Assembly: GCA_964016885.1 (NCBI GenBank)
Contig: OZ024743.1
Location: 246,140,001 to 246,204,000 of the forward strand
Length of the DNA: 64,000 nucleotides
Direction: 5' to 3'
Source of the DNA: Eledone cirrhosa
Taxonomy: Eukaryota
In this document: positions 6,346 through 54,400 of the stretch, piece after piece
Position numbering within the stretch: position 1 is the first letter of the stretch
Layout of the letters: each line of letters opens with the position of its first letter
Made by a program: the position numbers and the translations under genes
Notes under the pieces: generated by a model
What the model was told of the DNA's origin: nothing
What the model saw: the letters and a program-made list of their open reading frames with translations, nothing else
Databases searched by the model: none

Positions 6346-7515
6346 TACAACGCTATTAGCTGTCAGTCGAAGCAGCCGATGAAAGCAAAACATCGTTTAT
6401 TTTCGTATTACTACCACGCGTAAGTGGAGTTACTTAAATGAAAATTTTTTTTTTTCACGCGTTTTAAAAAAAAAAAATTTTTTTATTAAAGCATATAGAT
6501 GTAAGTGGAGTTACTTAAATGAAATTATTTTATTTTATTTTTATTAAAGCATATCGATGTAAGTGGAGTTACTTAAATGAAAATATAGGTGGCCCTTAAA
6601 AGGGCCAAATTAGAAAACAAATTTAAGTTAATTAGAAAACAAGTCATGGTTATCAAATAAATTGGATTTAATCATTTATATTTTCATAGTCATGGTTATC
6701 AATGTAGAAAACAAGTCATTTTCACCAACAGTGGAATTACTTCTGACAGCTAATACCATGAACTATATTTTCATAGTCATGGTTATTAATGTAGAAAACA
6801 AGTCATTTTCACCAACAGTGGAGTTAACTTAAATGAAAATATAGGTGGCCCTTAAAGGGCCAAATTAGAAAACAAATTTATGGTTATCAAATTTTTTTCA
6901 CCAACCCTTTATGAAGAAATGTTTAGAAAACAAATTTTTTTCACCAACCTTATTCAAAAGCATGGATACAGTCCACATGGAGACAAGAGACAGTCCCCAT
7001 GGAGATTTATGGTATCTGTAGTAGCGGTAGCGATGGAAAGATCGCGATGGTTAATTCCATTAACAATTTGGCCCTTTTAAGGGCCACCTATATTTTCATT
7101 TAAGTTAACTCCACTGTTGGTGAAAATGCCTTGTTTTCTACATTGATAACCATGACTATGAAAATATAAATGATTAAATCCAATTTATTTGATAACCATG
7201 ACTTGTTTTCTAATTAACTTAAAATTGTTTTCTAATTTGGCCCTTTTAAGGGCCACCTATATTTTCATTTAAGTAACACCACTTACATCTATATGCTTTA
7301 ATAAAAAAAAAATAATAATTTCATTTAAGTAACTCCACTTACATCTATATGTTTTAATAAAAAATAAAAAAATAAAAAACGCGTGAAAAAAAAAATGTCA
7401 TTTAAGTAACTCCACTTACGCGTGGTAGTAATACGGAAATAAACGATGTTTGACGAATGACGTCACCTTCGCCTGCTTTCACCGGCTGCTTCGACTGACA
7501 GCTAATAGCGTTGTA
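6346..7515. mobile_element. Foldback/MITE-like element with long modular inverted arms
   Basis: Termini tacaacgctattagctgtcagtcg and cgactgacagctaatagcgttgta. Reiterated gtaagtggagttacttaaatgaaa and ggcccttaaaagggcc modules occur in both arms. Confidence 0.75.
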
Positions 7516-10189: not shown

Positions 10190-11206
10190 CTACACCCGTA
10201 CACATCCAAATACACACACCCGTACACACCCAAATACACACCCAAATCTCATACCCAAATACACGCCCAAATACACACCCAAATACATACCCAAATACAC
10301 ACCCGTACATACCCAAATACACACCCAAATACACACACCCGTACACACCCAAATACACACCCGTATACACCCAAATACACACCCAAATACATACCCAAAT
10401 ACACACCCAAATACACCAAAATACACACCCAAATACATACCCAAATACACACCCGTACACACCCAACTACACACCCAAATACACACACCCGTACACACCC
10501 AACTACACACCCAAATACATACCCAAATACACACACCCGTACACACCCAAATACACGCCCAAATACACGCCCAAATACACACCCAAATACACACCCAAAT
10601 ACACACCCAAATACATACCCAAATACACACCCAAATACACAACAAAATACACACCCAAATACACGCCCAAATACAGACCCAAATACATACCCAAATACAC
10701 ACCCAAATACACACCCAAATTTCATACCCAAATACACGCCCAAATACACACCCAAATACACACCCAAATACACACCCAAATACACACCCAAATACACACC
10801 CAAATACATACCCAAATACACACTCGTACACACCCAAATACACACCCAAATACATACCCAAATACACACCCAAATACACACCCAAATTTCATACCCAAAT
10901 ACACACCCAAATACATACCCAAATACACACTCGTACACACCCAAATACACACCCAAATACATACCCAAATACACACCCAAATACACACCCAAATACACAC
11001 CCAAATACACGCCCAAATACACACCCAAATACACACCCAAATACACACCCAAATACACACCCAAATACACGCCCAAATACACACCCAAATACACACCCAA
11101 ATACACGCCCAAATACACACCCAAATACATACCCAAATACACACCCAAATACACACCCAAATACACACCCAAATACACACCCAAATACACACCCAAATAC
11201 ACACAC
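10190..11206. repeat. 12-bp minisatellite (ACACCCAAATAC)n
   Basis: Direct reading. It explains the stop-free ORFs in several frames. Confidence 0.97.
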
Positions 11207-11344
11207 AAACATATACAAACTGTTTTGGTTTACCATTAACAGACATTTTTACTATTAAAGAATAAAAGAAATCGTTACCAACAACATCATCGTCATGATC
11301 ATCATAGTTATCATCACCATCATTGTACATCAGCTAGCTTGGAC

Positions 11345-15087: not shown

Positions 15088-18000
15088 CAAGTCATAGACG
15101 GCACACAACCGTAAACACAGACTAGTCATAGACGGCATACAACTGTAGACACAGACTAGTCATAGACGGCATACAACCGTAGACACAGACTAGTCATAGA
15201 CGGCATACAACTGTAGACACAGACTAGTCATAGACGGCATACAACCGTAAACACAGACTAGTCATAGACGGCATACAACTGTAGACACAGACTAGTCATA
15301 GACGGCATACAACCGTAGACACAGACTAGTCATAGACGGCATACAACTGTAGACACAGACTAGTCATAGACGGCACACAACCGTAGACACAGACTAGTCA
15401 TAGACGGCATACAATCGTAGACACAGACTAGTCATAGACGGCATACAACCGTAGACACAGACTAGTCATAGACGGCATACAACCGTAGACACCGACTAGT
15501 CATAGACGGCACACAACCGTAGACACAGACTAGTCATAGACGGCACACAACCGTAGACACAGACTAGTCATAGACGGCATACAACCGTAGACACCGACTA
15601 GTCATAGACGGCACACAACCGTAGACACAGACTAGTCATAAACGGCATACAACTGTAGACACAGAGTAGTCATAGACGGTATACAACCGTAGACACAGAC
15701 TAGTCATAGACGGCATACAACCGTAGACACAGACTAGTCATAGACGGCATACAACCGTAGACACAGACTAGTCATAGACGGCATACAACTGTAGACACAG
15801 AGTAGTCATAGACGGCATACAACCGTAGACACCGACTAGTCATAGACGGCATACAACTGTAGACACAGAGTAGTCATAGACGGTATACAACCGTAGACAC
15901 AGACTAGTCATAGACGGCATACAACCGTAGACACAGACTAGTCATAGACGGCATACAACCGTAGACACAGACTAGTCATAGACGGCATACAACCGTAGAC
16001 ACAGACTAGTCATAGACGGCATACAACTGTAAACACAGAGTAGTCATAGACGGCATACAACCGTAGACACCGACTAGTCATAGACGGCATACAACTGTAG
16101 ACACAGAGTAGTCATAGACGGCATACAACCGTAGACACAGACTAGTCATAGACGGCATACAACCGTAGACACAGACTAGTCATAGACGGCATACAACCGT
16201 AGACACAGACTAGTCATAGACAGCATACAACTGTAGACACAGAGTAGTCATAGACGGCATACAACCGTAGACACAGACTAGTCATAGACGGCATACAACA
16301 GTAGACACAGAGTAGTCATAGACGGCATACAACCGTAGACAGCGACTAGTCATAGACGGCATACAACTGTAGACACAGAGTAGTCATAGACGGTATACAA
16401 CCGTAGACACAGACTAGTCATAGACGGCATACAACCGTAGACACAGACTAGTCATAGACGGCATACAACCGTAGACACAGACTAGTCATAGACGGCATAC
16501 AACTGTAGACACAGAGTAGTCATAGACGGCATACAACCGTAGACACAGACTAGTCATAGACGGCATACAACAGTAGACACAGAGTAGTCATAGACGGCAT
16601 ACAACCGTAGACACCGACTAGTCATAGACGGCATACAACCGTAGACACAGACTAGTCATAGACGGCATACGACCGTAGACACAGACTAGTCATAGACGGC
16701 ATACAACCGTAGACACCGACTAGTCATAGACGGCACACAACCGTAGACACAGACTAGTCATAGACGGCATACAACCGTAGACACAGACTAGTCATAGACG
16801 GCATACAACTGTAGACACAGAGTAGTCATAGACGGTATACAACCGTAGACACAGACTAGTCATAGACGGCATACAACCGTAGACACAGACTAGTCATAGA
16901 CGGCATACAACAGTAGACACAGAGTAGTCATAGACGGCATACAACCGTAGACACCGACTAGTCATAGACGGCATACAACCGTAGACACAGACTAGTCATA
17001 GACGGCATACGACCGTAGACACAGACTAGTCATAGACGGCATACAACCGTAGACACCGACTAGTCATAGACGGCATACAACTGTAGACACAGAGTAGTCA
17101 TAGACGGCATACAACCGTAGACACAGACTAGTCATAGACGGCATACAACCGTAGACACAGACTAGTCATAGACGGCATACAACTGTAGACACAGAGTAGT
17201 CATAGACGGCATACAACCGTAGACACAGACTAGTCATAGACGGCATACAACTGTAGACACAGACTAGTCATAGACGGTATACAACCGTAGACACAGACTA
17301 GTCATAGACGGTATACAACTGTAGACACAGACTAGTCATAGACGGCATACAACTGTAGACACAGACAAGTCATAGACGGTATACAACCGTAGACACAGAC
17401 TGGTCATAGACGGTATACAACTGTAGACACAGACTAGTCATAGACGGTATACAACTGTAGACACAGACTAGTCATAGACGGCATACAACTGTAGACACAG
17501 ACAAGTCATAGACGGTATACAACCGTAGACACAGACTAGTCATAGACGGCATACAACCGTAGACACAGACTAGTCATAGACGGCATACAACTGTAGACAC
17601 AGAGTAGTCATAGACGGCATACAACTGTAGACACAGACTAGTCATAGACGGTATACAACTGTAGACACAGACTAGTCATAGACGGCATACAACTGTAGAC
17701 ACAGAGTAGTCATAGACGGCATACAACTGTAGACACAGACTAGTCATAGACGGCATACAACTGTAGACACAGACTAGTCATAGACGGCATACAACTGTAG
17801 ACACAGAGTAGTCATAGACGGCATACAACTGTAGACACAGACTAGTCATAGACGGCATACAACTGTAGACACAGACTAGTCATAGACGGCATACAACTGT
17901 AGACACAGACTAGTCATAGACGGCATACAACTGTAGACACAGACTAGTCATATACGGCATACAACTGTAGACACAGAGTAGTCATAGACGGCATACAACC

Positions 18001-21000
18001 GTAGACACAGACTAGTCATAGACGGTATACAACTGTAGACACAGACTAGTCATAGACGGCATACGACCGTAGACACAGACTAGTCATAGACGGCATACAA
18101 CTGTAGACACAGACTAGTCATAGACGGCATACAACTGTAAACACAGACTAGTCATAGACGGCATACAACCGTAGACACAGACTAGTCATAGACGGCATAC
18201 AACTGTAGACACAGAGTAGTCATAGACGGCATACAATTGTAGACACAGAGTAGTCATAGACGGCATACAACCGTAGACACAGACTAGTCATAGACGGCAT
18301 ACAACTGTAGACACAGAGTAGTCATAGACGGCATACAACTGTAGACACAGAGTAGTCATAGACGGCATACAACCGTAGACACAGACTAGTCATAGACGGC
18401 ATACAACTGTAGACACAGACTAATCATAGACGGCATACAACCGTAGACACAGACTAGTCATAGACGGCATACAACTGTAGACACAGACTAGTCATAGACG
18501 GTATACAACCGTAGACACAGACTAATCATAGACGGCATACAACCGTAGACACAGACTAGTCATAGACGGCATACAACTGTAGACACAGACTAGTCATAGA
18601 CGGTATACAACTGTAGACACAGAGTAGTCATAGACGGCATACAACTGTAGACACAGACTAGTCATAGACGGCATACAACCGTAGACACAGACTAGTCATA
18701 GACGGCATACAACTGTAGACACAGAGTAGTCATAGACGGTATACAACTGTAGACACAGACTAGTCATAGACGGCATACAACTGTAGACACAGACTAGTCA
18801 TAGACGGTATACAACCGTAGACACAGACTAATCATAGACGGTATACAACCGTAGACACAGACTAGTCATAGACGGCATACAACTGTAGACACAGAGTAGT
18901 CATAGACGGTATACAACTGTAGACACAGAGTAGTCATAGACGGCATACAACTGTAGACACAGACTAGTCATAGACGGCATACAACCGTAGACACAGACTA
19001 GTCATAGACGGCATACAACTGTAGACACAGAGTAGTCATAGACGGTATACAACTGTAGACACAGACTAGTCATAGACGGTATACAACTGTAGACACAGAG
19101 TAGTCATAGACGGTATACAACCGTAGACACAGACTAGTCATAGACGGTATGCAACTGTAGTCACAGACTAGTCATAGACGGTATACAACTGTAGACACAG
19201 ACTAGTCATAGACGGTATACAACTGTAGACACAGACTAGTCATAGACGGCATACAACCGTAGACACAGACTAGTCATAGACGGCATACAACTGTAGACAC
19301 AGACTAGTCATAGACGGTATACAACTGTAGACACAGACTAGTCATAGACGGCATACAACTGTAGACACAGAGTAGTCATAGACGGCATAAAACTGTAGAC
19401 ACAGACTAGTCATAGACGGCATACAACTGTAGACACAGACTAGTCATAGACGGTATACAACCGTAGACACAGACTAATTATAGACGGCATACCACCGTAG
19501 ACACAGACTAGTCATAGACGGCATACAACTGTAGACACAGAGTAGTCATAGACGGTATACAACTGTAGACACAGAGTAGTCATAGACGGCATACAACTGT
19601 AGACACAGACTAGTCATAGACGGCATACAACCGTAGACACAGACTAGTCATAGACGACATACAACTGTAGACACAGACTAGTCATAGACGGTATACAACC
19701 GTAGACACAGACTAGTCATAGACGGCATACAACTGTAGACACAGAGTAGTCATAGACGGTATACAACTGTAGACACAGACTAGTCATAGACGGCATACAA
19801 CCGTAGACACAGACTAGTCTTAGACGGCATACAACTGTAGACACAGACTAGTCATAGACGGTATACAACTGTAGACACAGAGTAGTCATAGACGGTATAC
19901 AACTGTAGACACAGACTAGTCATAGACGGCATACAACCGTAGACACAGACTAGTCATAGACGGCATACAACTGTAGACACAGAGTAGTCATAGACGGCAT
20001 ACAACCGTAGACACAGAGTAGTCATAGACGGCACACAACCGTAGACACAGACAAGTCATAGACGGCATACAACTGTAGACACAGACTAGTCATAGCCGGT
20101 ATACAACCGTAGACACAGACAAGTCATAGACGGCATACAACCGTAGACACAGACAAGTCATAGACAGTATACAACTGTAGACACAGAGTAGTCATAGACG
20201 GCATACAACCGTAGACACAGACTAGTCATAGACGGTATACGACCATAGACACAGACTAGTCATAGACGGTATACAACCGTAGACACAGACAAGTCATAGA
20301 CGGTAAACAACCATAGACACAGACTAGTCATAGACGGCATACAACCGTAGACACAGACAAGTCATAGACGGTATATAACTGTAGACACAGACTAGTCATA
20401 GACGGCATACAACTGTAGACACAGACAAGTCATAGACGGTATACAACTGTAGACACAGAGTAGTCATAGACGGCATACAACCGTAGACACAGACAAGTCA
20501 TAGACAAATCATAGACGGCATACAACCGTAGACACAGACAAGTCATAGACGGCATACAACCGTAGACACAGACAAGTCATAGACGGCATACAACCGTAGA
20601 TACAGACAAGTCATAGACGGTATACGACCGTAGACACAGACTAGTCATAGACGGTATACAACCGTAGACACAGACTTGTCATAGACGGTATATAACCGTA
20701 GACACAGACAAGTTATAGACGGTATACAACTGTAGACACAGACTAGTCATAGACGGCATACAACTGTAGACACAGACTAGTCATAGACGGCATACAACCG
20801 TAGACACAGACAAGTCATAGACGGTATACAACCGTAGACACAGACAAGCCATAGACGGTATACAACTGTAGAAACAGACACGTCATAGACAAGTCATAGA
20901 CGACATACAGCCGTTGACACAGACTAGTCATAGACGGTATACGACCGTAGACACAGACAAGTCATAGACGGCATACAACCGTAGACACAGACTAGTCATA

Positions 21001-24000
21001 GACGGTATACAACTGTAGACACAGACTAGTCATAGACGGTATACGACCGTAGACACAGACTAGTCATAGACGGTATACGACCGTAGACACAGACTAGTCA
21101 TAGACGGTATACAACCGTAGACACAGACTAGTCATAGACGGTATACAACTGTAGACACAGACTAGTCATAGACGGTATACGACCGTAGACACAGACTAGT
21201 CATAGACGGTATACAACCGTAGACACAGACTAGTCATAGACGGTATACAACTGTAGACACAGACTAGTCATAGACGGTATACGACCGTAGACACAGACAA
21301 GTCATAGACGGCATACAACTGTAGACACAGACTAGTCATAGACGGCATACAACTGTAGACACAGAGTTGTCATAGACGGCATACAACCGTAGACACAGAC
21401 TAGTCATAGACAGCATACAACCGTAGACACAGACTAGTCATAGACGGTATACAACCGTTTACACAGACAAGTCATAGACGGTATACAACTGTAGACACAG
21501 ACTAGTCATAGACGGTATACAACTGTAGACACAGACAAGTCGTAGACGGTATACAACCGTTTACACAGACAAGTCATAGACGGTATACAACTGTAGACAC
21601 AGACAAGTCATAGACGCTATACAACTGTAGACACAGACTAGTCATAGACGGCATACAACCGTAGACACAGACTAGTCATAGACGGTATACAACTGTAGAC
21701 ACAGACAAGTCATAGACGCTATACAACTGTAGACACAGACTAGTCATAGACGGCATACAACCGTAGACACAGACTAGTCATAGACGGCATACAACCGTAG
21801 ACACAGACAAGTCATAGACGGCATACAACTGTAGACACAGAGTAGTCATAGACGGTATACAACTGTAGACACAGACTAGTCATAGACGGCATACAACTGT
21901 AGACACAGAGTAGTCATAGACGGCATACAACCGTAGACACAGACAAGTCATAGACAAGTTATAGACGGCATACAACCGTAGACACAGACAAGTCATAGAC
22001 GGCATACAACCGTAGACACAGACAAGTCATAGACGGCATACAACTGTAGACACAGACTAGTCATAGACGGCATACAACTGTAGACACAGACTAGTCATAG
22101 ACGGCATACAACCGTAGACACAGACAAGTCATAGACGGTATACAACCGTAGACACAGACAAGCCATAGACGGTATACAACTGTAGACACAGACTAGTCAT
22201 AGACGGTATACAACCGTAGACACAGACAAGCCATAGACGGTATACAACTGTAGACACAGACACGTCATAGACAAGTCATAGACGACATACAGCCGTAGAC
22301 ACAGACTAGTCATAGACGGTATACAACTGTAGACGCAGACTAGTCATAGACGGTATACGACCGTAGACACAGACAAGTCATAGACGGTATACAACTGTAG
22401 ACACAGACACGTCATAGACAAGTCATAGACGACATACAGCCGTAGACACAGACTAGTCATAGACGGTATACAACTGTAGACGCAGACTAGTCATAGACGG
22501 TATACGACCGTAGACACAGACAAGTCATAGACGGTATACGACCGTAGACACAGACTAGTCATAGACGTTATACAACTGTAGACACAGACACGTCATAGAC
22601 AAGTCATAGACGACATACAGCCGTAGACACAGACTAGTCATAGACGGTATACAACTGTAGACGCAGACTAGTCATAGACGGTATACGACCGTAGACACAG
22701 ACAAGTCATAGACGGTATACGACCGTAGACACAGACTAGTCATAGACGTTATACAACTGTAGACACAGACTAGTCATAGACGGTATACAACTGTAGACAC
22801 AGACTAGTCATAGACGGTATACAACCGTAGACACAGACAATTCATAGACGGTATACAACTGTAGACACAGACTAGTCATAGACGGTATACAACCGTAGAC
22901 ACAGACTAGTCATAGACGGTATACAACCGTAGACACAGACTAGTCATAGACAAGTCATAGACGGCATACAACCGTAGACACAGACATGTCATAGACGGCA
23001 TACAACCGTAGACACAGACAAGTCATAGACGGCATACAACTGTAGACACAGACTAGTCATAGACGGCATACAACCGTAGACACAGACAATCATAGACGCT
23101 ATACAACTGTAGACACAGACTAGTAATAGACGGCATACAACCGTAGACACAGACTAGTCATAGACGGCATACAACCGTAGCCACAGACAAGTCATAGACG
23201 GCATACAACTGTAGACACAGACTAGTCATAGACGGTATACAACTGTAGACACAGAGTAGTCATAGACGGTATACAACTGTAGACACAGACTAGTCATAGA
23301 CGGCATACAACTGTAGACACAGAGTAGTCATAGACGGCATACAACCGTAGACACAGACAAGTCATAGACGGCATACAACCGTAGACACAGACAATTCATA
23401 GACGGTATACGACCGTAGACACAGACTAGTCATAGACGGTATACAACTGTAGACACAGAGTAGTCATAGACGGTATACAACTGTAGACACAGACAAGTCA
23501 TAGACGGCATACAACTGTAGACACAGACTAGTCATAGACGGTATACAACCGTAGACACAGACAATTCATAGACGGTATACGACTGTAGACACAGACTAGT
23601 CATAGACGGTATACAACCGTAGACACAGACAATTCATAGACGGTATACGACCGTAGACACAGACTAGTCATAGACGGTATACAACCGTAGACACAGACTA
23701 GTCATAGACGGCATACAACCGTAGACACAGACAATCATAGACGCTATACAACTGTAGACACAGACTAGTAATAGACGGCATACAACCGTAGACACAGACT
23801 AGTCATAGACGGCATACAACCGTAGCCACAGACAAGTCATAGACGGTATACAACTGTAGACACAGAGTAGTCATAGACGGTATACAACTGTAGACACAGA
23901 CTAGTCATAGACGGCATACAACTGTAGACACAGAGTAGTCATAGACGGCATACAACCGTAGACACAGACTAGTCATAGACGGCATACAACCGTAGCCACA

Positions 24001-24562
24001 GACAAGTCATAGACGGCATACAACTGTAGACACAGACTAGTCATAGACGGTATACAACTGTAGACACAGAGTAGTCATAGACGGTATACAACTGTAGACA
24101 CAGACAAGTCATAGACGGCATACAACTGTAGACACAGACTAGTCATAGACGGTATACAACCGTAGACACAGACAATTCATAGACGGTATACGACTGTAGA
24201 CACAGACTAGTCATAGACGGTATACAACCGTAGACACAGACAATTCATAGACGGTATACGACCGTAGACACAGACTAGTCATAGACGGTATACAACCGTA
24301 GACACAGACTAGTCATAGACGGTATACAACTGTAGACACAGACAAGTCATAGACGGCATACAACCGTAGACACAGACTAGTCATAGACGGTATACGACCG
24401 TAGACACAGAGTAGTCATAGACGGTATACAACTGTAGACACAGACTAGTCATAGACGACATACAACCGTAGACACAGACTAGTTACAGACGGCATACAAC
24501 CGTAGACACAGACAAGTCATAGACAAGTCATAGACGACATACAGCCGTAGACACAGACTAGT
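15088..24562. repeat. 34-bp minisatellite, about 280 copies (GTCATAGACGGCATACAACCGTAGACACAGACTA)
   Basis: Period 34 read directly. Point variants and occasional 11-bp internal duplications. Confidence 0.98.
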
Positions 24563-34243: not shown

Positions 34244-37200
34244 TCATCCAAAACCTCAACCACGACCTCTTCTCCTTCCTCACCTCCACCAAAGCCCTTA
34301 AGCTACACTCACTCCTCTCGACCCCCCTTCCCCCGCCCATCCCTATGACCTCCCCCCATCCCCCATACCCCCTCTACACCCCTCCCATACCCACACCCCT
34401 ACACAATCTCTCCCCCCTCTCAACCCCTCACACACCCCAACGCCACCACTTGTTGTCACCATATCCCCTGACCTCCCCCTCTCCGCACCTGAGCCTTCAC
34501 TCCTCAGTATAGGCCTTCGCTTCATACCCCACACTCCGCACAGCGACGAGTTCCGCACCCGAACGGAAGTCGAGCGATTCGTGCGGCGCACAAAGCTACA
34601 GGCACATTTCGATCAAACGCCACTGGCTCCGAACGCCCCAGACCCGTTTCTCGCCCTGGGCCGACAACCATCGTCTTGGACGCCGGCCCGAGGGCAATTT
34701 AGCACCCTGGACGCGTTCGTCGATGCCTGCCGTAGCGCCGTAAATCGCTTCGACTTCCGCCACCGGTCCAAACGGCATAACATCTCACGGGGCGAACTCC
34801 TCGCTCTCCGCTCCCTCCGTAGCCGAGATTACATCGTCATCAAACCGGCGGACAAGGGATGCGCCGTGGTGGTGTGGTGCGCTGACCTCTACACGGCTGA
34901 AGCCCTCAGGCAGCTCCGTAACCGCCTCTTCTACGGCCCTCTACCCTCCGATCCCACACCCCTCTACCAACAACACGTTTCCTCACCACCATCCAACACC
35001 TTGTCTCCTCCTACCTCCTCCCCCACCAGTTCCCACCTCATCGTCCGCACCGCCCGCACCCCCACTATCTACTTCCTCCCCAAACTCCACAAACCCGACA
35101 ACCCCGGCGGCCCCATCGTCTCCGCTTGCAACTGCCCCACCGAACTCATCTCCGCCTTTCTTGACTCCATCCTCGCCCCCCTCGTCACCACCCTCCCCTC
35201 CCACATCTCCGACACCAACCACGCCCTTCGCCTATTCGACTCCTTCACCTTCCCACCCGTCTTACAGCCCTTCCTCTTCACTCTAGATATCAAGTCGCTC
35301 TATACTGTCATCCCCGACGCCGACGGCCTACGTGCCCTCAAGCGCTACCTCGACCTTCGCCCCTCCCCCATCCCCCCCACCCTCCTTCGCCTCGCCGAGC
35401 TGGTCCTCACCCTCAACTGTTTCTCCTTCTCAGGTGAGTTTTGCCAACAGGTCACGAGGGTAGCCATGGGCACAAGAATGGGCCCAAACTATGCCAACCT
35501 TTTCGTTGAGGCCCAAATCTGTTACCAGTACACCGGCCTCACGCCCGAACTGTACGGTCGTTACATCGACTTCACCTCCTCCCACCCTACACACACTAAA
35601 CACTCTATTCCCTACTCCCAACTCCTCAGCCGAGATGCTGACTTTGAGTCCCAGGCCCTTTCCCTAGTCAGCTATTTCATCCGCAGAGGTCCCCCCTCCC
35701 TCGTCCACACCGCCCTCACTCGCGCCCGTGCTGTCCACCGCTCCACCACCCCCACCCAAGCCACTGCACACTCACCCACCGTCTCCCCTTCCCCATCACC
35801 TACCACCACTCCACCCTAGCCCTCCATCGCACCATCCTCTGCTCTTCCGACGCCTCCAATCCGACCCCTCCACCTCCCACATCTTCCCGCCCCACCACTC
35901 CCCTCTTTCAAACGCGCACGCAATCTCCGCACCCTCCTCGTCCGTAGCTCCCTACCCCCCAACCCACGCTCTCTTCCCCCCCGGTTCCCTTCCCTGTTCC
36001 AGGCCTCGTTGCAACACCTGTCCCCACATCACCAATACCACCACCTTCCAGGGTCCAAACGGCCACTCTCTCTCTGTCCGGCACGCCTTCCGCTGCACCT
36101 CCTCCAACCTACTCTATGGACTTCGCTGCACGGAGTGTAGCTCAACCTACGTCGGACAGACTGGACGTCGCCTGGCGGACCGTTTCACCGAACACCTCCG
36201 GGATATTCGTCTCGGCGGGAGTTCCCCCATCGCCCGCCACTTTGGCTCCCCTGGACATTCCGCGCACCACCTCACAGTTTGTTGCCTACTCCAATGCCAC
36301 GGAACACCCGCCACCCTTCTCAGGGTTGAACAACGCACCATCTTCACCCTACAGACCCACACTCCCCCCGGCCTGAACTCCTCACCCCTATTCCTTTAGC
36401 CTTCGACCGCCATGTCCCCCCCCCCCCCCACACACACAAACACATATCCCCCACTAACACCACTAACACACTCCTCCTTTTCATCGCCCACCCCACAACT
36501 AACAATACTAACAACCCCACCCACCCCCGACCACCCTCCCTCAACTAACAATACTAACATCCTTTCCCCCTTCCCCTCCCTCTCCCCTATCACGCACACA
36601 CCCACCGGTACATATATACACGCACTCACACTAACCACACACCCTACTACCACCACTAACCCCCACCTACACATCTACTCCCACCACCCCACAACTAATA
36701 CCACTAACATCCCCCCGACCCCACGCACACGAACACACCCACCCACCCACACCCATTTACACCACCCACTCTACACACCCTACCACCACTGACCCCCACT
36801 AACACACCCCCATTCAACCCTTTCCCCACCACCAGTATACTAACACCCACTAACACACACTCATCCAAACACGCACACACACACCAGTACACTACATTCC
36901 CTCCACCGTCCCCCACACCTTTCTCTCCCTCTCCTCGCTCCACCCACACCCCTTTACACACGCACACATCCCACTAACACCTCTACTAATACACACACCC
37001 TTCCCCCGCACGACCCCCTCCCCATTCCACCTTTCACACCTACCCATCCTCTCCCCTGTCCACCGCACCTCCGCACACACTGACACACCGACTTTCTCCA
37101 CCTGCCATTCTCCTCTACTGCTGCTATGCCTTGACCCTCTGACCACCTCTCCGCACACACAGACACACAGCCTTCTCCACCTGTCCTTCTCCTCTACCCT

Positions 37201-37976
37201 CCTCCTGCCTTGACCCTCTGACCACTTCATGTTGCGCGCGCACCCCACATCTCCCCTCTTCCAACCAACCCAACCACGGATTACACACATTGGACATCGC
37301 TCCCACCAATCAACTCCATCACAAGGAAAATATCCGGCACCTCACCACACCCTCTACGGAACTACCTTAGGAACTTACCCACGGACATACACTCACAAAA
37401 AATTGTTTTCCCACACGCCACTTACATCCACAATACGTATAAACACCACACACACGTGCTTACCCCCACATATTTACACACTCAGCCTCCGGAATCCTCA
37501 CGCCCCCTCTCTCTGACCCCTCCCCATCCACACGCGCACACACACCCCCCACACACACTTTTTCCTGAACATGGAACCTCGTTCTTCCCCCAATTCTCAC
37601 ATTCACATACACACACACACACGTACACCTACACACACACACCACCACCAGCCCTCCCCGCTCGGACACCCAGCCTCCCTCTCCCCACTCCACCCACCAC
37701 CACCCCTACAGGCCCCACACCCTTCCACCTCTTGTTTATCTTCATGTTTATTTTTATTTTTATTATTTTTTTATATTTATTTTCATTTGTACCCCTTCCG
37801 CCCCCCCCCATTTTCTAAATGTCTCTCCCCCACTCCTCTACACACCCTTGGAACTCTCTTCCCACACTTTTCGCCTAAAGAAGGGCTTATGCCCGAAACG
37901 CCCCCCCCCCACTCTCAAGAGTTGAAACTAATAAACCTTTGTTCGTACTGCCTCTGTTTTGTTCCCATTCCATATT

Positions 37977-37981
<5 letters not shown>
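34243..37981 (+). pseudogene. Penelope-like retroelement, Neptune-type (RT, Cys-rich linker, GIY-YIG), internally deleted and frameshifted, long C/A-rich 3' UTR
   Basis: IVIKPADKG, YFLPKLHKPDNPGGPIVS, LDIKSLYT, AMGTRMGPNYANLF, YGRYID, CSRPRCNTC, LLYGLRC..YVGQTGRRLADRFTEH, stop at 36399. Degenerate HHR ctaaagaagggcttatgcccgaaacg at about 37875-37900. (TA)n on both sides. Confidence 0.92.
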
Positions 37982-38042
<61 letters not shown>

Positions 38043-38110
38043 GGATGCTTAAAAGCGTCCGTGTGCGGTAGGCCGTTTGAGCACTCGATGCTCTTACAGA
38101 GCAGAGTACA

Positions 38111-39861: not shown

Positions 39862-39867
<6 letters not shown>

Positions 39868-40808
39868 TAAACGGAATAGAAAATGCTGACAAATTGTTCA
39901 CAGTTGAAAAATGGTTTAATTAGGAATAAAAGAGTATTAGTGATTGTATGCAGGGACTACCCTGCATCACTAATTGACAATGGAATCCAACGTGCCCTAA
40001 AACTCAGTACCCAGGACCTTAGACACCCTAAAGTAAATCAACCAAAACTAAAAGCTCTTCCATACATCTCCACACACAACCCCCTCAACAATGAGGCCTT
40101 TAACACCATCCTCCAGAACATCCCTGTATTGAAAAAGGACCATAGAATGAACCAAATTCTACGAACACACGATATCATAAAGAGCAAAAGACAATCCAAG
40201 TCAATGAAAAACATCTTAACACATGCCAAAGTACTGCCAACCACAACAACGAAACCCACAGTAAAGAAATGCGATAGACCCAACTGTGGCATTTGCATCA
40301 ACCTAATAGAGGGTTCGGAATTCTATTTCAAAGATGGACAACGTTTTATAGTAAAACACAATTTCACATGTGCATCGGAAAATCTAATATATATATTAAC
40401 TTGTTCAGGTTGTCGAGAACAATACATAGGCCAGACCAAAAACAGCCTCCGCCAACGCACGACTGTCCATAGATCCCAAATCAAAATACGGGAATACAGG
40501 AAAATACCACTGAGTGAATACATTGATACCTGTGCCGCCCAAAATCATCCCAACTTCAGAATCTTTCCCCTCTACAAATTTAAAGATAATGCCACCCACA
40601 CCCAGCGCATCAGCAAGGAATCTTACTTCATTAACAAATACGGACCCCGTCTAAACACTTCTCCCTAAGACGAACCCACAACATACACACGTCAACATAC
40701 ATACCTACATCAGCACACATCTCTACCCACATATAAACACAATGACATACGTAAACACACATGCTCTATGGTGCAACACAAAAAAATATATGTGCATATA
40801 TATATGTA

Positions 40809-40880
<72 letters not shown>

Positions 40881-41023
40881 ATATATGTATGTGTATATAT
40901 ATATAGTGAATATCATTTCACACCTTTTTTTGTTAAGATTTTTGATGTTCTATTAAGAGAACCGATTTTACTGAAAAAATCGAATAATGTACACCATTTT
41001 ACCAGGGGGGAAAAAATACTGGT

Positions 41024-41066
<43 letters not shown>

Positions 41067-41108
41067 CACACACACATACACACGCGTACATCAACATACA
41101 AAGAGACT

Positions 41109-41153
<45 letters not shown>

Positions 41154-41271
41154 TTCTCCGTATAAGACAAAAGCTGAAAAATATCTTTTGATATGCTAAA
41201 ATACCCCCCATTGCTTTCAGACACATTCTTACTGACCATCCCTGCCACCACAAATTACTCTGCTATACACA

Positions 41272-41316
<45 letters not shown>

Positions 41317-41400
41317 ATCTTAATAGCCATTTGACACACATCGCTGCTAACCATTATCACAACATCGAACACCTTACTACTACTACTACTACTACTACTA

Positions 41401-41434
<34 letters not shown>

Positions 41435-41932
41435 TTGTTGTGAAAGAGTCATTTCTCAATCTTGGCGCAAAACCAATTTTTTATTCACATGACCTCTACC
41501 GACCAATCAAAATTGTTTTGACCACAAGAATTTTTGCTGGAGCCACTTTTTTAACATAAAAACAGTCTTGGCGCAAAATCAATTTTTTACATTCACATGA
41601 CCTCTACCGACCAATCAAAATTGTTTTGACCACAAGAATTTTTGCAAATTGGAGCCACTTTTTTAACATAAAAGCAGGTAGAATTCCCAAAACTAATCAG
41701 ATCAGAGCAAACAGCACGGACACTCTATCTCAAAATTATTTTTGAAAAGCATTTAGAAATGCGCAACCGGTAAAAACTTAAAAACTTAAAACCACAACTG
41801 AATACTAACCCATACAATCACTAATACTCTTTTATTCCTAATTAAACCATTTTTCAACTGTGAACAATTTGTCAGCATTTTCTATTCCGTTTACCAATAT
41901 ATAATAACTTGTGTGTTATACCTCTATTCTTT

Positions 41933-41937
<5 letters not shown>
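39862..41937 (+). pseudogene. 5'-truncated Neptune-type PLE (thumb, Cys linker, GIY-YIG) with inverted 3'-end copy at its 5' junction
   Basis: CDRPNCGIC...FTCASENLIYILTCSGCREQYIGQTKNSLRQRTTVH, stop at 40668. 39862-39950 is the reverse complement of 41811-41900. Confidence 0.9.
41461..41675. repeat. ~106-bp tandem duplication within the PLE 3' UTR
   Basis: cttggcgcaaaa...ttttaacataaaa occurs twice. Confidence 0.9.
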
Positions 41938-41989: not shown

Positions 41990-42412
41990 AGATCAAAAGA
42001 TGGTTAAAGGAGTTCCATGTATTTTATTATGCGCATTTCAAAAACAAACATCATCATGCAATAATATTTGTGTTTTCATCAGATAAAACAGGAGAACATG
42101 ATATGAAGGCTAAAAAAACACTTGTGGATAGTGCAGTTTTAAATCAACATATGTTGATATGTTGATTTAAAACTGCACTATCCACAAGTGTTTTTTAGCC
42201 TTCATATCATGTTCTCCTGTTTTATCTGATGAAAACACAAATATTATTGCATGATGATGTTTGTTTTTGAAATGCGCATAATAAAATACATGGAACTCCT
42301 TTAACCATCTTTTGATCTTATATTATGTATACTCCAGTCCTACAAACTGTAGAGTGCTTCTTATCCGATATCTGCATTGCTTTATTGTACTACAATAAAA
42401 CTCACCTCCTAC

Positions 42413-42619: not shown

Positions 42620-42735
42620 ATAGGAAAAAATATGATCCCGATGGCAGAGCTCAAGCCGTTTCGACGGCTATTTCTGGCCCAGAAATAGCCGTCGAAACGG
42701 CTTGAGCTCTGCCGTCGAGGTCATACTTTTTCCTA
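42620..42735. repeat. Second copy of the 4-118 half-hammerhead palindrome
   Basis: ggcagagctcaagccgtttcgacggctatttctggcccagaaatagccgtcgaaacggcttgagctctgcc. Confidence 0.9.
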
Positions 42736-43002: not shown

Positions 43003-43622
43003 CAACTAGAAATAGATTGACATATATATATATATATAAAATAAACATATGGAACAATCACAGGGGATAATTTGTAAAGTGTGTAAGTACATATAGCTAG
43101 TTAGGTAACCAATTAAAGTTTAACTAGAACTTCAAATATAGATACCTTTTAAAATGATTAATCTCCTTTGTATATATTTCTTTAAATAAAAAAATATATT
43201 TCACCAATTAATTAGTAAATCACAGTAGTCAAATCCTGGATGGTCACCAAAGGAGAAGAAATAACTATCTGCGTTTACAAAGCAAATGCAAATCTGTGAA
43301 TGACTCGAACCACGTGTTGCATTTTAAAAAAAGAAACACATCGCACAGCATCATCCCAGTGGCTTGAATAGGATTATCGACAGCTAGAAATAGCAGCTGA
43401 GCCCATTCAACTGAGTTAGCTCTACAATTAAGGGGCCGTATATATATCCAAAATTAAATTAAGGGTTGTCATGTCTGAGAGACATGCGCCATACCCACTG
43501 CAGAATATTAACTAGAAATAGTTGATATGAAATGCTCGGATCTATTCATTGGAATCTTTGAGCTTATTCTGCAGTGGGTATGGCGCATGTCTCTCAGACA
43601 TGACAACCCTTAATTTAATTTT

Positions 43623-44093: not shown

Positions 44094-44130
<37 letters not shown>

Positions 44131-44133
<3 letters not shown>

Positions 44134-45668
44134 CTATTTCAGAGCATTTATTCCAATTTCTAATTTCTGCCGGACCGGCAACCGCTCTTTCAAACCAGTT
44201 CCTGTACACAGCTAAGTATTCTATAAGTCTCTAGCTGTGTCATTCTCGATAAAAGCACTGGATATGTAGTCCTGATGAATTCTAACAAGAATGAAACGCG
44301 TAGATTACTTCCCTTGCTTTTATCGAGAATCTAATTGTAATACGTGACGTATTCTATTCTATAGCGATTAGGTCTTCAAAATGTTTATTATAAACATACA
44401 GAATATTTTCGAATATTCTATGTCTGTGTTCACATATATATCGCTATTTCAGAGCATTTATTCCAATTTCTAATTTCTGCCGGACCGGCAACCGCTCTTT
44501 CAAACCAGTTCCTGTACACAGCTAAGTATTCTATAAGTCTCTAGCTGTGTCATTCTCGATAAAAGCACTGGATATGTAGTCCTGATGAATTCTAACAAGA
44601 ATGAAACGCGTAGATTACTTCCCTTGCTTTTATCGAGAATCTAATTGTAATACGTGACGTATTCTATTCTATAGCGATTAGGTCTTCAAAATGTTTATTA
44701 TAAACATACAGAATATTTTCGAATATTCTATGTCTGTGTTCACATATATATCGCTATTTCAGAGCATTTATTCCAATTTCTAATTTCTGCCGGACCGGCA
44801 ACCGCTCTTTCAAACCAGTTCCTGTACACAGCTAAGTATTCTATAAGTCTCTAGCTGTGTCATTCTCGATAAAAGCACTGGATATGTAGTCCTGATGAAT
44901 TCTAACAAGAATGAAACGCGTAGATTACTTCCCTTGCTTTTATCGAGAATCTAATTGTAATACGTGACGTATTCTATTCTATAGCGATTAGGTCTTCAAA
45001 ATGTTTATTATAAACATACAGAATATTTTCGAATATTCTATGTCTGTGTTCACATATATATCGCTATTTCAGAGCATTTATTCCAATTTCTAATTTCTGC
45101 CGGACCGGCAACCGCTCTTTCAAACCAGTTCCTGTACACAGCTAAGTATTCTATAAGTCTCTAGCTGTGTCATTCTCGATAAAAGCACTGGATATGTAGT
45201 CCTGATGAATTCTAACAAGAATGAAACGCGTAGATTACTTCCCTTGCTTTTATCGAGAATCTAATTGTAATACGTGACGTATTCTATTCTATAGCGATTA
45301 GGTCTTCAAAATGTTTATTATAAACATACAGAATATTTTCGAATATTCTATGTCTGTGTTCACATATATATCGCTATTTCAGAGCATTTATTCCAATTTC
45401 TAATTTCTGCCGGACCGGCAACCGCTCTTTCAAACCAGTTCCTGTACACAGCTAAGTATTCTATAAGTCTCTAGCTGTGTCATTCTCGATAAAAGCACTG
45501 GATATGTAGTCCTGATGAATTCTAACAAGAATGAAACGCGTAGATTACTTCCCTTGCTTTTATCGAGAATCTAATTGTAATACGTGACGTATTCTATTCT
45601 ATAGCGATTAGGTCTTCAAAATGTTTATTATAAACATACAGAATATTTTCGAATATTCTATGTCTGTG

Positions 45669-45672
<4 letters not shown>
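44131..45672 (+). mobile_element. Tandem array of five 310-bp HHR-containing units (non-LTR retrozyme-like)
   Basis: Units start at 44131, 44441, 44751, 45061 and 45371, appear identical, and have no ORF in the track. (TA)n flanks and short (TA) junctions. Confidence 0.9.
44242..44330 (+). ncRNA. Type I hammerhead with extended stem I (copies at +310, +620, +930, +1240)
   Basis: gtagtc ctgatga attct aaca agaat gaaa cgcg ta gattac at 44266-44308. 16-bp outer helix attctcgataaaagca/tgcttttatcgagaat. Confidence 0.92.
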
Positions 45673-45699
<27 letters not shown>

Positions 45700-45705
<6 letters not shown>

Positions 45706-51410: not shown

Positions 51411-54400
51411 TAAGATAAGATCAAAAGATGGTTAAAAGAGTTCCATGTATTTTATTATGCGTATTTCAAAAACAAATAACATCATGGGATGATACTTGTG
51501 TTCTCATCAGATAAAATAGGGAGACATGATATGAAGTTTAAAAAAACACTTGCGAGCAGTGAAGTGTTAAATCTACATATGAAAAAATAAAATAAGATGG
51601 ATATATGAGATTGGGAAAAAAAGAAAGAAGGGGGAAGGAGAGGTAAGGAAGAGGAAGAAAGAAAATAAAGGATGACGGGGTGGAGTATAAGAAAGAAGGA
51701 TGAGAGAGGAGGAGAAATGAGTGAGAGAGAGAGATAGCCTTTAATACTGAGAAACACTGTCTCACAGAGGGAAATTAAAAAACCGTTGTAAGATAATACA
51801 TAATTTTAAAAAATTTTGAAATTAAAAGTTAATGAGGTTTATGAATGGTGATGTTTATGATTAAAGAAAAAGGAATTAAGAATAATATTTATTTAAGGTT
51901 TATATATTGAAGGGTTTAATAATATGTACGAAAAGGAATTTATTAATATGTATTATTAAAATAAAAATATTAAGGAGATAAGGTGAATGAAGAAGGAATT
52001 AAATGAATTATGAACTTAGAGGAATTAGTTATGGTCTAAGTTTGTTTCTATGTATTGTAATATGAAAAAGTAAATAATAGGTTTAATACGAGCACAGAAG
52101 GAGAGAATAAAGAAAAAAATTTAAGGAAGAAAAAATATATAACGTCAAAAAAATATGTTTACAAAATTTACTAATGGTATATATTTACTAATTAGTATAT
52201 ATTAAACATATAGTTTGTATGGCCAAGAATATAAGGAAAATGCTATAGTGAGTAATAATATGAATTAAGAAGTAAATGAGAAGTAAAAGTTACAGATTAA
52301 AGATTAGAAATTAAAAAAGAAAAAAGGAAAAAAGGAAAAAGGGAAAAAAGGATAAAAAAGAAGAAAAATAGGGGACCGCTAACGACATAGAATGAGTAAA
52401 TTGTATAATATAATATACTGAAATAAGGTAGAAAGATGGGTATATTTGTAAAAGATATAAAAGAGTTTGAGAAAAGAAGATTTTAAACTAATTAGGTAGT
52501 GAGATATTAGCTGTATACTTTATGGAAAGTTCTATGGGATTTATGCAAGCAGAGCGAAAATAAATCTGTACGTCTATTTATTATAGAATTAAAATTAGAG
52601 ATAATGGTAAATTTCTCGGCTAGGCAGAGATTACATGTTCTGGATAGGGAAGAATTCCGGTAAGGAGATGCGTTGCAAACCTTCCTCCAAGAAATGTTGT
52701 AGTTAATATTTTTGTCTTTTAAGGACCATATGAGTTCTGAGAGTGCCGTGTTAGTTCTTTTAAGTTGGTATTTAGAAGACGAATTGTGATTATAAAATCT
52801 TGCTTTAAAGGAAGTGGAAGTGGAACCAAAATAGGTAAAAGAATTAGTACCAGTTATAACCTTACATTCATACACTAAATTTTTATCAAGACATTGGTTA
52901 TTAAGAGGACATTTAGTTCTAACAGGGCAATTACAATTACGATTAGAGAAATTACCAGAGTTATTGACAAGTGACCTAGTATTACTTATAGAAGGAATTG
53001 GATTGGAGAAGTTATTTACGATAGGTGCTAAAATTTCCTGATTTAGATTGGTGTTATGAACATTCGACAAAGTTACGTTTGACGTCGTATTTAAATTTAC
53101 TGAATCTAGTCTAGAGTTAACATTGACGTCGGGTTTACTATTGCTATTATTATGACGCTCAGTGTTGGATGGATATAATTTATTATTTAATATTTTATTA
53201 TTATGTTTAGAGATAATGTTAGAGATGTTGGAAGTGGTGGAATAAGAGAATTTGATTGTATGTTTGTTAAAGATCTTACTATAGATATGCGATGGAGGGA
53301 AGCATTTATCTAAGGCCCTAAAAAATAGTTTAGGAATATTACTAGTAATAGATAGAGAAAAAGGAGCGCTGTACCAAATCATATTTTTGTATCTAGGTCT
53401 TTTATTTAAGTTATTCGAATGTTTATAACTAACTATTTTACTATAAGTCCTTCGATGATTGGTTTCTTTACTGTATTTAATTTTGTCAGGATAACCGGCT
53501 TTGGAAAGCGCATTATTATAATAATTGGCATTAGCATCGAAGATAACTTTATTAGAGGATAGATTTGAGATTCTTTTTTCAACATTACTGACTATAGCAT
53601 TTTTAACGTTAATGGGGTGTTTAGATTTAAAATTAATATAATTTAGATTCTCGTTGCCTTTAATATAGGCCGGTGTCAAGATTAGGGGATATATCCAGGA
53701 AGTTAGCTAGTTTGACGTTGTTTTCAAATTCAATTTTTAGGTTATGGTGCTTAAATAGATCAAGTATATTATTCTTCATAATATTAAGGTTAACTAGGTT
53801 ACAGTTTAAAACAGTAAAAAGGGTTTCGTCACGATAAATTCCACGGCGAAGTTGAGGAATTTTCCGATTTAAAAAATTCAAAATAAAGAATCCAATCAAA
53901 TCCGTCAATTGCGCTGAATCCGACGAACCCATTGTGATATCAAAATTGTTGGAAGTATCAGCTCTAGTCCAATATTCGTTGTTGAACTCCAGGATAGTTT
54001 TTCTTGCGGTGAGAATGATGTAAAGTTCATCTGTGGTAATGTCAGAATATTTAAATGCGAAAGATAGAGCGTTGTTGAGGAGTGAAGGCGAAATAGAAGA
54101 ATAGTAACTGGCAATGTCAAACTGGATAAATTTTTGTTTGTTTTTATTATTCAGGTCATTGAACCAGTTAATTACATCAGATGTACCAATCCATAAATTT
54201 AAGTTAGAAATAGAGCAATTAGAACGAACCTGTGGAATAATTCTATCCAAGATGGATTTACTAACAACCCCCAGATCTGATTTAGAGGGGGCGATTAGTC
54301 TAACAGGCAGTTCCGTTCGAAAGTTACTTTTATGATCCTTAAGATTTATCCTCGGAGTTCTTGGGAAGAATGGTTCGGTCTTTTTCTCGATGCCATTGCT

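What the first reader, a model, noticed from the sequence alone, without database searches (positions are those of the whole stretch)
44131..45672. Five identical 310-bp hammerhead units: candidate young retrozyme producing a circular RNA
Seen: each unit has an intact HHR with a 16-bp extended stem I and internal loop, a self-complementary ACGCGU stem III, and further hairpins (acacagcta/tagctgtgt, tgccgg-a-ccggca, atgttta/taaacat, agaatatt/aatattct). Junctions contain a short (TA) run like the flanking target. Established: metazoan non-LTR retrozymes are short tandem HHR repeats processed to circRNAs and thought to use PLE RT. Inference: cleavage after 44302 + 310n would release exact 310-nt monomers, and the built-in TA run could anneal to (TA)n targets to prime rolling reverse transcription. 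I cannot tell whether this family has been described.
Basis: partly seen in the sequence, partly recalled or inferred. Interest (0 to 1): 0.85.

Follow-up and report, generated by a model that had tools for sequence, protein, structure and literature searches.

The report
Edited circular-RNA retrozyme with Penelope ends
This five-unit repeat is one of more than a thousand dispersed insertions of a 310-base element that carries a hammerhead-ribozyme motif; the insertions have the ends typical of Penelope-type retrotransposons and shared A-to-G changes, which likely record an edited circular RNA being copied round and round into DNA.

Summary
In detail: five identical 310-bp units, each with an intact type I hammerhead motif, lie between (TA)n runs. 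The family has over 1,000 insertions (1,013 exact tail junctions; 3,913 exact cores of one minority variant). I mapped 126 insertions. Most are two head-to-head arms. All 108 two-arm insertions with both ends resolved have one arm ending at unit position ~300 and the other ~24-40 nt further on: the Penelope-like (PLE) 'tail'. Inner ends are random and ignore the cleavage site. Variants unique to one locus and fixed across its array are 22 of 42 sense-strand A>G (T>C 3), against 16 of 172 single-unit variants. One unique locus has nine such changes, three destroying the ribozyme core, in all five copies on both arms. Best reading: a non-LTR retrozyme whose edited circular monomer is likely copied by rolling-circle reverse transcription from both ends of a PLE cut. 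Against: the A>G excess is weaker in pattern-found loci (6 of 25); three loci carry mirrored first-lap variants that one circle cannot explain; no RNA, cleavage or helper PLE is shown.

The parts
44133..45672 (+). Single-arm retrozyme insertion: five 310-bp units, the last ending at unit position u300
44133..44442 (+). Unit 1 (reference unit u1-u310); further units start at 44443, 44753, 45063, 45373
44242..44330 (+). Hammerhead domain with the 16-bp outer stem (44242-44257 / 44315-44330); repeats every 310 bp
   Evidence: 12 of 13 array-wide variants in the three stems keep pairing, including one compensatory pair
44266..44308 (+). Type I hammerhead: stem I 44266-44271 / 44303-44308, core CUGAUGA 44272-44278, stem II 44279-44292, GAAA 44293-44296, palindromic ACGCGU 44296-44301, predicted cleavage after 44302
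   Evidence: sequence; activity not tested
44430..44441 (+). Insertion end site 1 (u298-309, includes the internal TA run); used by this insertion at 45672
44433..44467 (+). PLE-type 'tail' between end site 1 and end site 2 (u301 to u25 of the next unit; site 2 mostly u24-32, range u14-32)
44426..44428 (+). Positions u294 and u296: G in all five units, A in the family majority; likely fixed RNA edits
   Evidence: haplotype shared with 1 of 125 other loci
44095..44132 (.). Upstream (TA)n target; its last 8-9 bases match u302-310 (5' junction microhomology)
45673..45704 (.). Downstream (TA)n target, the likely primer side

Best explanation
The array is one insertion of a young, high-copy non-LTR retrozyme family whose 310-nt RNA likely self-cleaves and circularises and is likely copied by a Penelope-like (PLE) reverse transcriptase rolling round the circle. 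Shown: dispersed arrays in (TA)n, two fixed 3' ends about 24-40 nt apart, one of each per two-arm insertion, random inner ends, one haplotype per insertion, and a sense-strand A>G excess among array-wide variants. Inferred steps: (1) a tandem transcript is cut at each hammerhead, probably as a dimer through the palindromic ACGCGU; (2) the monomer is ligated and is sometimes A-to-I edited by ADAR; (3) a PLE endonuclease, probably Neptune-type, cuts both strands of (TA)n; (4) the two DNA 3' ends prime at site 1 (helped by pairing to the unit's TA run) and at site 2 on the same circle and each rolls for a variable number of laps; (5) the two cDNAs are joined head to head, mostly blunt or through 1-5 nt of microhomology. 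The window's insertion kept only the site-1 arm.
For: Dispersal: 3,913 exact cores, 1,442 site-1 motif matches, some internal, 1,013 exact site-2 junctions; reversed-pattern controls 0. Ends: 108 of 108 two-arm insertions with both ends resolved pair site 1 with site 2 (74; 34). An optional 30-40 bp tail at one end and an inverted 5'-truncated copy are PLE hallmarks (PMC8557442; PMC3846280), and a purified PLE extends both strands from two RT start sites that bound the tail (PMC11167929). A young coding Neptune-type family in this genome has the same two-end pattern in (TA)n. No stop at the cleavage site: 4 of 161 and 2 of 75 inner ends at u168-174, expected 3.6 and 1.7. Monomer bottleneck: 38 of 38 locus-unique variants covered on both arms are on both; two random loci share a haplotype 5.7% of the time. 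Editing signal: locus-unique array-wide A>G 22 of 42, T>C 3, C>T 1; single-unit A>G 16 of 172, T>C 24; Fisher p=4e-9; 14 of 34 without L044. L044's hyper-changed core motif occurs five times in the assembly, all at that locus, on both arms. A>G recurs at u136, u119 and u190 on 5, 3 and 3 backgrounds. The coding Neptune-type ORFs show no such excess (A>G 7 of 56 singletons, T>C 6).
Against: No RNA, circle, cleavage or editing was observed. The A>G excess is concentrated in the 14 loci found by BLAST with the window's own unit (16 of 17). It is 6 of 25 in the 112 pattern-found loci (p=0.02) and 2 of 5 in the 40-locus replication set (p=0.045). No clear ADAR neighbour or pairing preference (5' G 3 of 30 against 15 of 92; mean pairing 0.57 against 0.62). 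L103, L264 and L116 carry variants only in the first one or two laps of both arms, which one monomer circle cannot give. Long arrays (L080, L081, L253, L266) have scattered repeated variants, and a cluster on C14 looks DNA-amplified. The helper PLE was not identified: three coding families tested show no similarity to the unit at their ends. In the one purified PLE the unprocessed RNA was the main substrate (PMC11167929), and 8 of 9 Xenopus retrozyme dimers did not cleave in vitro (10.64898/2026.07.22.740005).
Confidence: 0.72

Rival explanations
1. The same PLE machinery copies uncleaved linear (or multimeric circular) transcripts of existing arrays, or one arm is copied from the other; monomer circles are a side product or a minor route.
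For: Variants mirrored from the outer ends in L103, L264 and L116. [quoted passage not shown] Stem III is weak as a monomer.
Against: Editing of a linear multimer should give single-unit A>G, mirrored on both arms. Single-unit variants show no A>G excess, and in the first set only 1 mirrored site (two entries) stands against 64 testable unmirrored variants. L044's changes are in every copy with no source locus in the assembly. In L260 one arm switches from A to G at u136 after four laps while the other is G throughout, which is not mirrored.
Confidence: 0.15
2. Short insertions (one to two units) are expanded and homogenised afterwards at the DNA level by unequal crossover or gene conversion, as proposed in the satellite model of 10.64898/2026.07.22.740005.
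For: Repeated scattered variants in long arrays, including a pair seven units apart in L080; a higher-order cluster on C14 between about 25.02 and 25.35 Mb.
Against: Single-unit variants (172) far outnumber multi-unit ones (17 entries), so turnover is slow. Both inverted arms share every locus-unique variant (38 of 38). DNA turnover would not give a strand-specific A>G excess. 144 of 161 arms exceed one unit.
Confidence: 0.08
3. Circular-template copying is right, but the A>G excess comes from polymerase or RT error bias or from selection for G-U-tolerant pairs, not from ADAR.
For: A>G keeps pairing in stems; no clear ADAR sequence context; the signal is uneven between sample sets.
Against: Selection for wobble pairs should favour C>T equally, yet C>T is 1 of 42. 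RT errors and DNA mutations are represented by the single-unit spectrum, which is strand-symmetric. Eight A>G within 13 nt in L044 is typical of hyper-editing (own knowledge).
Confidence: 0.12
4. The unit is only the terminal repeat of a coding PLE, or the array is an assembly artefact.
For: PLE-type ends; retrozymes resemble PLE terminal repeats in Xenopus (10.64898/2026.07.22.740005).
Against: In 126 mapped insertions the arms end in (TA)n, in each other or in unrelated flank; ORF scans were run only on the C14 cluster, the sister family and the PLE loci. Each locus has its own haplotype and junctions. The unit and its head-to-tail joint are in contigs of three further public runs.
Confidence: 0.02

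Closest known systems
Metazoan non-LTR retrozymes (coral, mussel, axolotl; PMC7229834, parts 2-4 of 6 read; review PMC7761336, passages read)
   Same: Non-coding 150-450 bp tandem unit, type I hammerhead, low GC, thousands of copies, self-paired predicted circle; weak palindromic helix III as in the axolotl HHR_Amex1.
   Different: Those papers show cleavage and circles, but state PLE-driven rolling reverse transcription as a hypothesis. The passages read do not describe head-to-head two-arm arrays, a PLE tail, (TA)n targeting or array-wide A>G. Here the RNA itself is untested.
Vertebrate retrozymes as non-autonomous PLE derivatives (bioRxiv 10.64898/2026.07.22.740005, parts 1-3 of 5 read; supplements not seen)
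   Same: PLE link; similar unit length; variable repeat number.
   Different: That link rests on co-occurrence and terminal-repeat homology, with tandems ascribed to local amplification. Here it rests on insertion junctions and per-insertion haplotypes; no homologous coding PLE was found.
Endonuclease-bearing PLEs: Poseidon of the green anole (PMC11167929, parts 1-2 of 4 read); Neptune and Naiad (PMC8557442, passages); rotifer Penelope (PMC3846280, passages)
   Same: Inverted 5'-truncated arm, 30-40 nt tail on one end, two RT start sites, AT-rich or (TA)n targets; one 11-12 bp target duplication at L057.
   Different: No ORF; arms are many laps of a 310-nt unit. PMC3846280 argues for an antisense template to explain head-to-head repeats; the sense-strand A>G excess points to the ribozyme-sense RNA here.

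Membership tests
Non-LTR retrozyme | Short non-coding tandem unit of 150-450 bp | tested here: met
   310 bp; no ORF of 120 aa or more in the array
Non-LTR retrozyme | Type I hammerhead motif in each unit | tested here: met
   Core and stems present in all five units; weak Rfam HH9 hit; core intact in 85 of 86 loci of the first set
Non-LTR retrozyme | Dispersed, multi-copy, variable unit number | tested here: met
   Arms of 0.2 to over 24 units; over 1,000 junctions
Non-LTR retrozyme | No LTR, PBS or PPT; target duplication longer than 4 bp where visible | tested here: inconclusive
   No LTR layout; PBS and PPT not searched; duplication unreadable in (TA)n; one 11-12 bp case (L057)
Non-LTR retrozyme | Self-cleavage of the transcript | not testable with these tools
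   Prediction only
Non-LTR retrozyme | Expression as linear and circular monomer RNA | tested here: inconclusive
   No run on record as RNA was listed; contig data cannot tell
PLE-mobilised element | Inverted 5'-truncated arm at the 5' end | tested here: met
   109 of 126 mapped insertions have two arms
PLE-mobilised element | 30-40 nt tail on one end only (two RT start sites) | tested here: met
   108 of 108 resolved two-arm insertions
PLE-mobilised element | Sequence shared with the terminal repeat of a coding PLE | tested here: inconclusive
   No match at the ends of the 3 coding families tested, out of many in the genome
Autonomous PLE | RT plus GIY-YIG ORF | tested here: not met
   None in the array or the C14 cluster

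The most novel reading that the evidence does not exclude
Each insertion is a DNA record of one ADAR-edited circular RNA molecule, copied lap after lap in both directions by a dimeric PLE reverse transcriptase whose two halves start about 35 nt apart on the same circle. That would be genomic evidence both for rolling-circle retrotransposition of an animal circRNA and for the origin of PLE head-to-head repeats from a sense template.
Probability: 0.55. Interest if true: 0.85.

Novelty: new variant of a known kind. Interest (0 to 1): 0.72.

Why it matters
How animal retrozymes return to the genome, and why PLEs make head-to-head repeats with a one-sided tail, are both stated as open in the papers read (PMC7229834, PMC7761336, PMC8557442, PMC3846280). 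This family offers more than a thousand young insertions of a 310-nt template, with natural per-molecule marks and two fixed start sites. That makes template strand, template circularity and two-ended priming testable by counting in one genome, and gives a minimal substrate for in vitro work. It would also show RNA edits written into the germline genome in many copies at once.

Tried and rejected
RNA evidence: no RNA holder listed. Of four runs laid, three of unknown library type each gave one 340-nt contig that closes on itself, and one gave 465 contigs of many variants. Trace DNA of a high-copy tandem gives the same picture, and one run may be the window's source, so these are not counted as evidence of expression.

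Helper search: three coding PLE families from the window (30+10, 20 and 20 loci read) have no similarity to the unit at their own ends; one locus has a separate retrozyme relative nearby. The young Neptune-type family has no hammerhead match; the older C-rich one has a minimal hammerhead. In 30 sister-family loci, five had PLE protein matches, none arranged as a shared terminal repeat as far as inspected.

Linear cleaved monomers as templates with frequent stops at the cut: not supported. My interim view that the TA run plays no part was dropped. ADAR context and pairing tests were uninformative.

Literature: ten searches listed no paper on this family, on retrozyme insertion junctions or on edited array-wide variants. 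The library lacks most subscription papers and Repbase; the supplements of PMC7229834 (invertebrate retrozymes, model figure) and of the 2026 preprint were not seen and may bear on novelty. One paper on dimeric PLE hammerheads was not held. Earlier scan findings: none.

Rows dropped before counts: the second copy of L066, the part of L079 that duplicates L080, sister-family fragments under 90% identity, pieces under 60 nt, 6 nt at inner ends and terminal positions from u298; seven cut or three-piece loci in the mirror test; the C14 cluster throughout.

Full report
OBSERVATION. The window holds five 310-bp units from 44133 to 45672 between (TA)n runs. Positions are given as u1-u310 from 44133. 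Units 1-4 are identical; unit 5 differs at u301, which is where the target begins. Each unit has a type I hammerhead motif: stem I u134-139/u171-176, core CUGAUGA u140-146, stem II u147-151/u156-160, GAAA, the palindrome ACGCGU, and predicted cleavage after u170 (44302+310n). Rfam HH9 hits all five at E=0.0089, under its gathering score. A perfect 16-bp stem encloses the ribozyme. The circular fold is -69.3 kcal/mol, z=-4.8 against 60 shuffles. Stem III does not form in the monomer fold while ACGCGU self-pairs, so a dimer is the likely active form (inference; PMC7229834 shows this for an axolotl hammerhead with a palindromic loop).

FAMILY. The window lies on contig C4 of a 3.0-Gb assembly. 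Exact searches give 3,913 cores of the 147A variant, which marks 20 of 86 loci in the first set; 1,442 matches to one 3' junction motif, some internal to a variant haplotype; and 1,013 matches to the other junction. Reversed controls gave 0. I mapped 126 insertions: 14 found by BLAST with the unit (the window included), 12 by the core pattern, 60 by the site-1 pattern and 40 by the site-2 pattern. The pattern-found loci were taken in listed order along contig C1. An older sister family of about 314 nt (1,966 first-look candidates) has the same layout.

ENDS. Of 126 insertions, 109 have two head-to-head arms, with 5' ends joined and 3' ends facing out; 17 show one arm, three of them cut by the fetched stretch or an assembly gap. 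3' ends fall at two sites: site 1 near u300 and site 2 mostly at u24-32 of the next unit. All 108 two-arm insertions with both ends resolved have one end of each kind: 20 of 20 found without an end pattern, 54 of 54 found by site 1, 34 of 34 found by site 2. This is the PLE signature of an inverted truncated arm and a 30-40 bp tail on one end (PMC8557442; PMC3846280). For the purified anole PLE, the tail is the stretch between two RT start sites and both DNA strands are cut and extended (PMC11167929). Inner junctions are mostly blunt or overlap by 1-5 nt, with a few inserts of up to 272 nt. L057, inserted outside (TA)n, has an 11-12 bp target duplication. A young coding Neptune-type family (intact 784-aa RT plus GIY-YIG ORF), with a truncated copy in this window at about 39864-41937, has the same two ends about 40 nt apart in (TA)n. 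It shares no detectable sequence with the unit, so it is a candidate helper only.

PRIMING. At site 1, of 75 consecutive tail-found loci, 35 replace C301 with target T, 24 keep it, 5 were classed as other, 2 are uninformative and 9 were not scored. Both main classes keep the (TA)n register over u300-309, which fits pairing of the primer to the unit's TA run (inference). Site 2 has 1-3 nt of homology, the sister family has TGTATACA at the run's place, and L057 needed no (TA)n, so pairing helps but does not define the sites.

TEMPLATE. Arms average 4.5 units; 144 of 161 exceed one unit. Inner ends are spread evenly over the unit (chi-square p=0.10) and are not enriched at the cleavage site: 4 of 161 and 2 of 75, expected 3.6 and 1.7. 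There are 58 haplotypes among 126 loci, yet 38 of 38 locus-unique variants covered on both arms are on both. Among locus-unique array-wide variants, sense-strand A>G is 22 of 42 (T>C 3, C>T 1, G>A 2). Among single-unit variants it is 16 of 172 (T>C 24, C>T 23, G>A 22); p=4e-9. Counted by locus, 12 have a unique A>G and 3 a unique T>C. L044 (C2:273.396 Mb) has nine A>G in u152-164 and u255 beyond the two it shares with the window, three of them in the GAAA core. The changed motif occurs five times in the assembly, all at that locus, on both arms. Edits made one molecule at a time would be fixed across an array only if one monomer were copied repeatedly. The window's own five units carry A>G at u294 and u296 against the family majority. 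Singleton changes in 11 coding Neptune-type ORFs show no A>G excess.

RESULTS AGAINST. The excess is uneven: 16 of 17 in the 14 BLAST-found loci, 6 of 25 in the 112 pattern-found loci (p=0.02; all distinct variants 15 of 51, p=2e-4) and 2 of 5 in the last 40 (p=0.045). Sequence context and pairing of the A>G sites are unremarkable. L103, L264 and L116 have variants in the first lap or two of both arms only, which points to a mixed multimer template, a coupled template switch or arm-to-arm copying in at least these cases. L260 shows an unmirrored switch at u136. Arrays of 18 or more units show scattered repeated variants, and a cluster on C14 has repeated blocks of truncated units, so DNA-level turnover does occur. 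No RNA data were available.

MECHANISM AND VERDICT. Most likely, transcript to dimer cleavage to ligated circle, sometimes edited, to two-ended PLE target-primed rolling reverse transcription in (TA)n (confidence 0.72). The junction pattern and haplotype sharing are shown; cleavage, circularisation, ADAR and the helper are inferred. It works like a non-LTR retrozyme and meets every sequence criterion that could be settled; the two RNA-level criteria are open. PMC7229834 and PMC7761336 propose multimeric cDNA from circles and name PLEs as candidates; the 2026 preprint adds homology and co-occurrence. Ten searches listed no description of this family or of such junction and editing evidence, within a library that lacks most subscription papers, and with the relevant supplements unseen. 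Novelty: new variant of a known kind. Interest 0.72.

Noticed in passing
window 39864-41937; L201-L210: Truncated two-arm copy of a young Neptune-type PLE in (TA)n. Full-length members have a 4,734-nt unit, a 784-aa RT/GIY-YIG ORF overlapped by an upstream 455-aa ORF without Pfam match (possible frameshift), a microsatellite-rich 3' region and no hammerhead match; most copies differ by 1-9 nt in 2,352.
   Followed up: partly
G000:C14 about 25.02-25.35 Mb (L031-L037, L049, L050, L166-L168): Large higher-order cluster of same-strand retrozyme pieces with recurring ends (u30, u136) separated by TA-rich repeats; looks amplified at the DNA level; not continuous (L169, L170 nearly empty).
   Followed up: partly
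L048:4527-6130, L131-L160, L207:5138-5777: Older sister retrozyme family or families of about 314 nt with a different hammerhead region but a conserved u239-u25 module, probably the RT-binding region.
   Followed up: partly
L081:1498-1769, L098:1031-1290, L121:4029-4082: Unrelated sequence between the two arms (272, 260 and 54 nt); possible capture of other RNAs by template switching, or later insertions.
   Followed up: no
window 34302-38071: Older C-rich Neptune-type PLE; members of its family carry a minimal hammerhead far downstream of the endonuclease.
   Followed up: partly
window 52507-54400 (-) and 4797-5216 (-): Two further PLE-like fragments; the first belongs to a high-copy family (58,832 first-look candidates); clades not determined.
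   Followed up: partly
window 42640-42730 and 43480-43620; 42000-42300: Short head-to-head inverted repeats next to (TA)n runs, possibly two-arm insertions of other non-coding PLE-dependent elements.
   Followed up: no
window 6567-6611 (-), 7065-7110, 7234-7278: Three Rfam histone 3' UTR stem-loop matches at or above gathering, with no long ORF listed beside them; they appear to lie in a repeat.
   Followed up: no
window 15090-24524 and 10199-11209: A 34-bp satellite of about 275 copies and a 12-bp minisatellite of about 85 copies.
   Followed up: no
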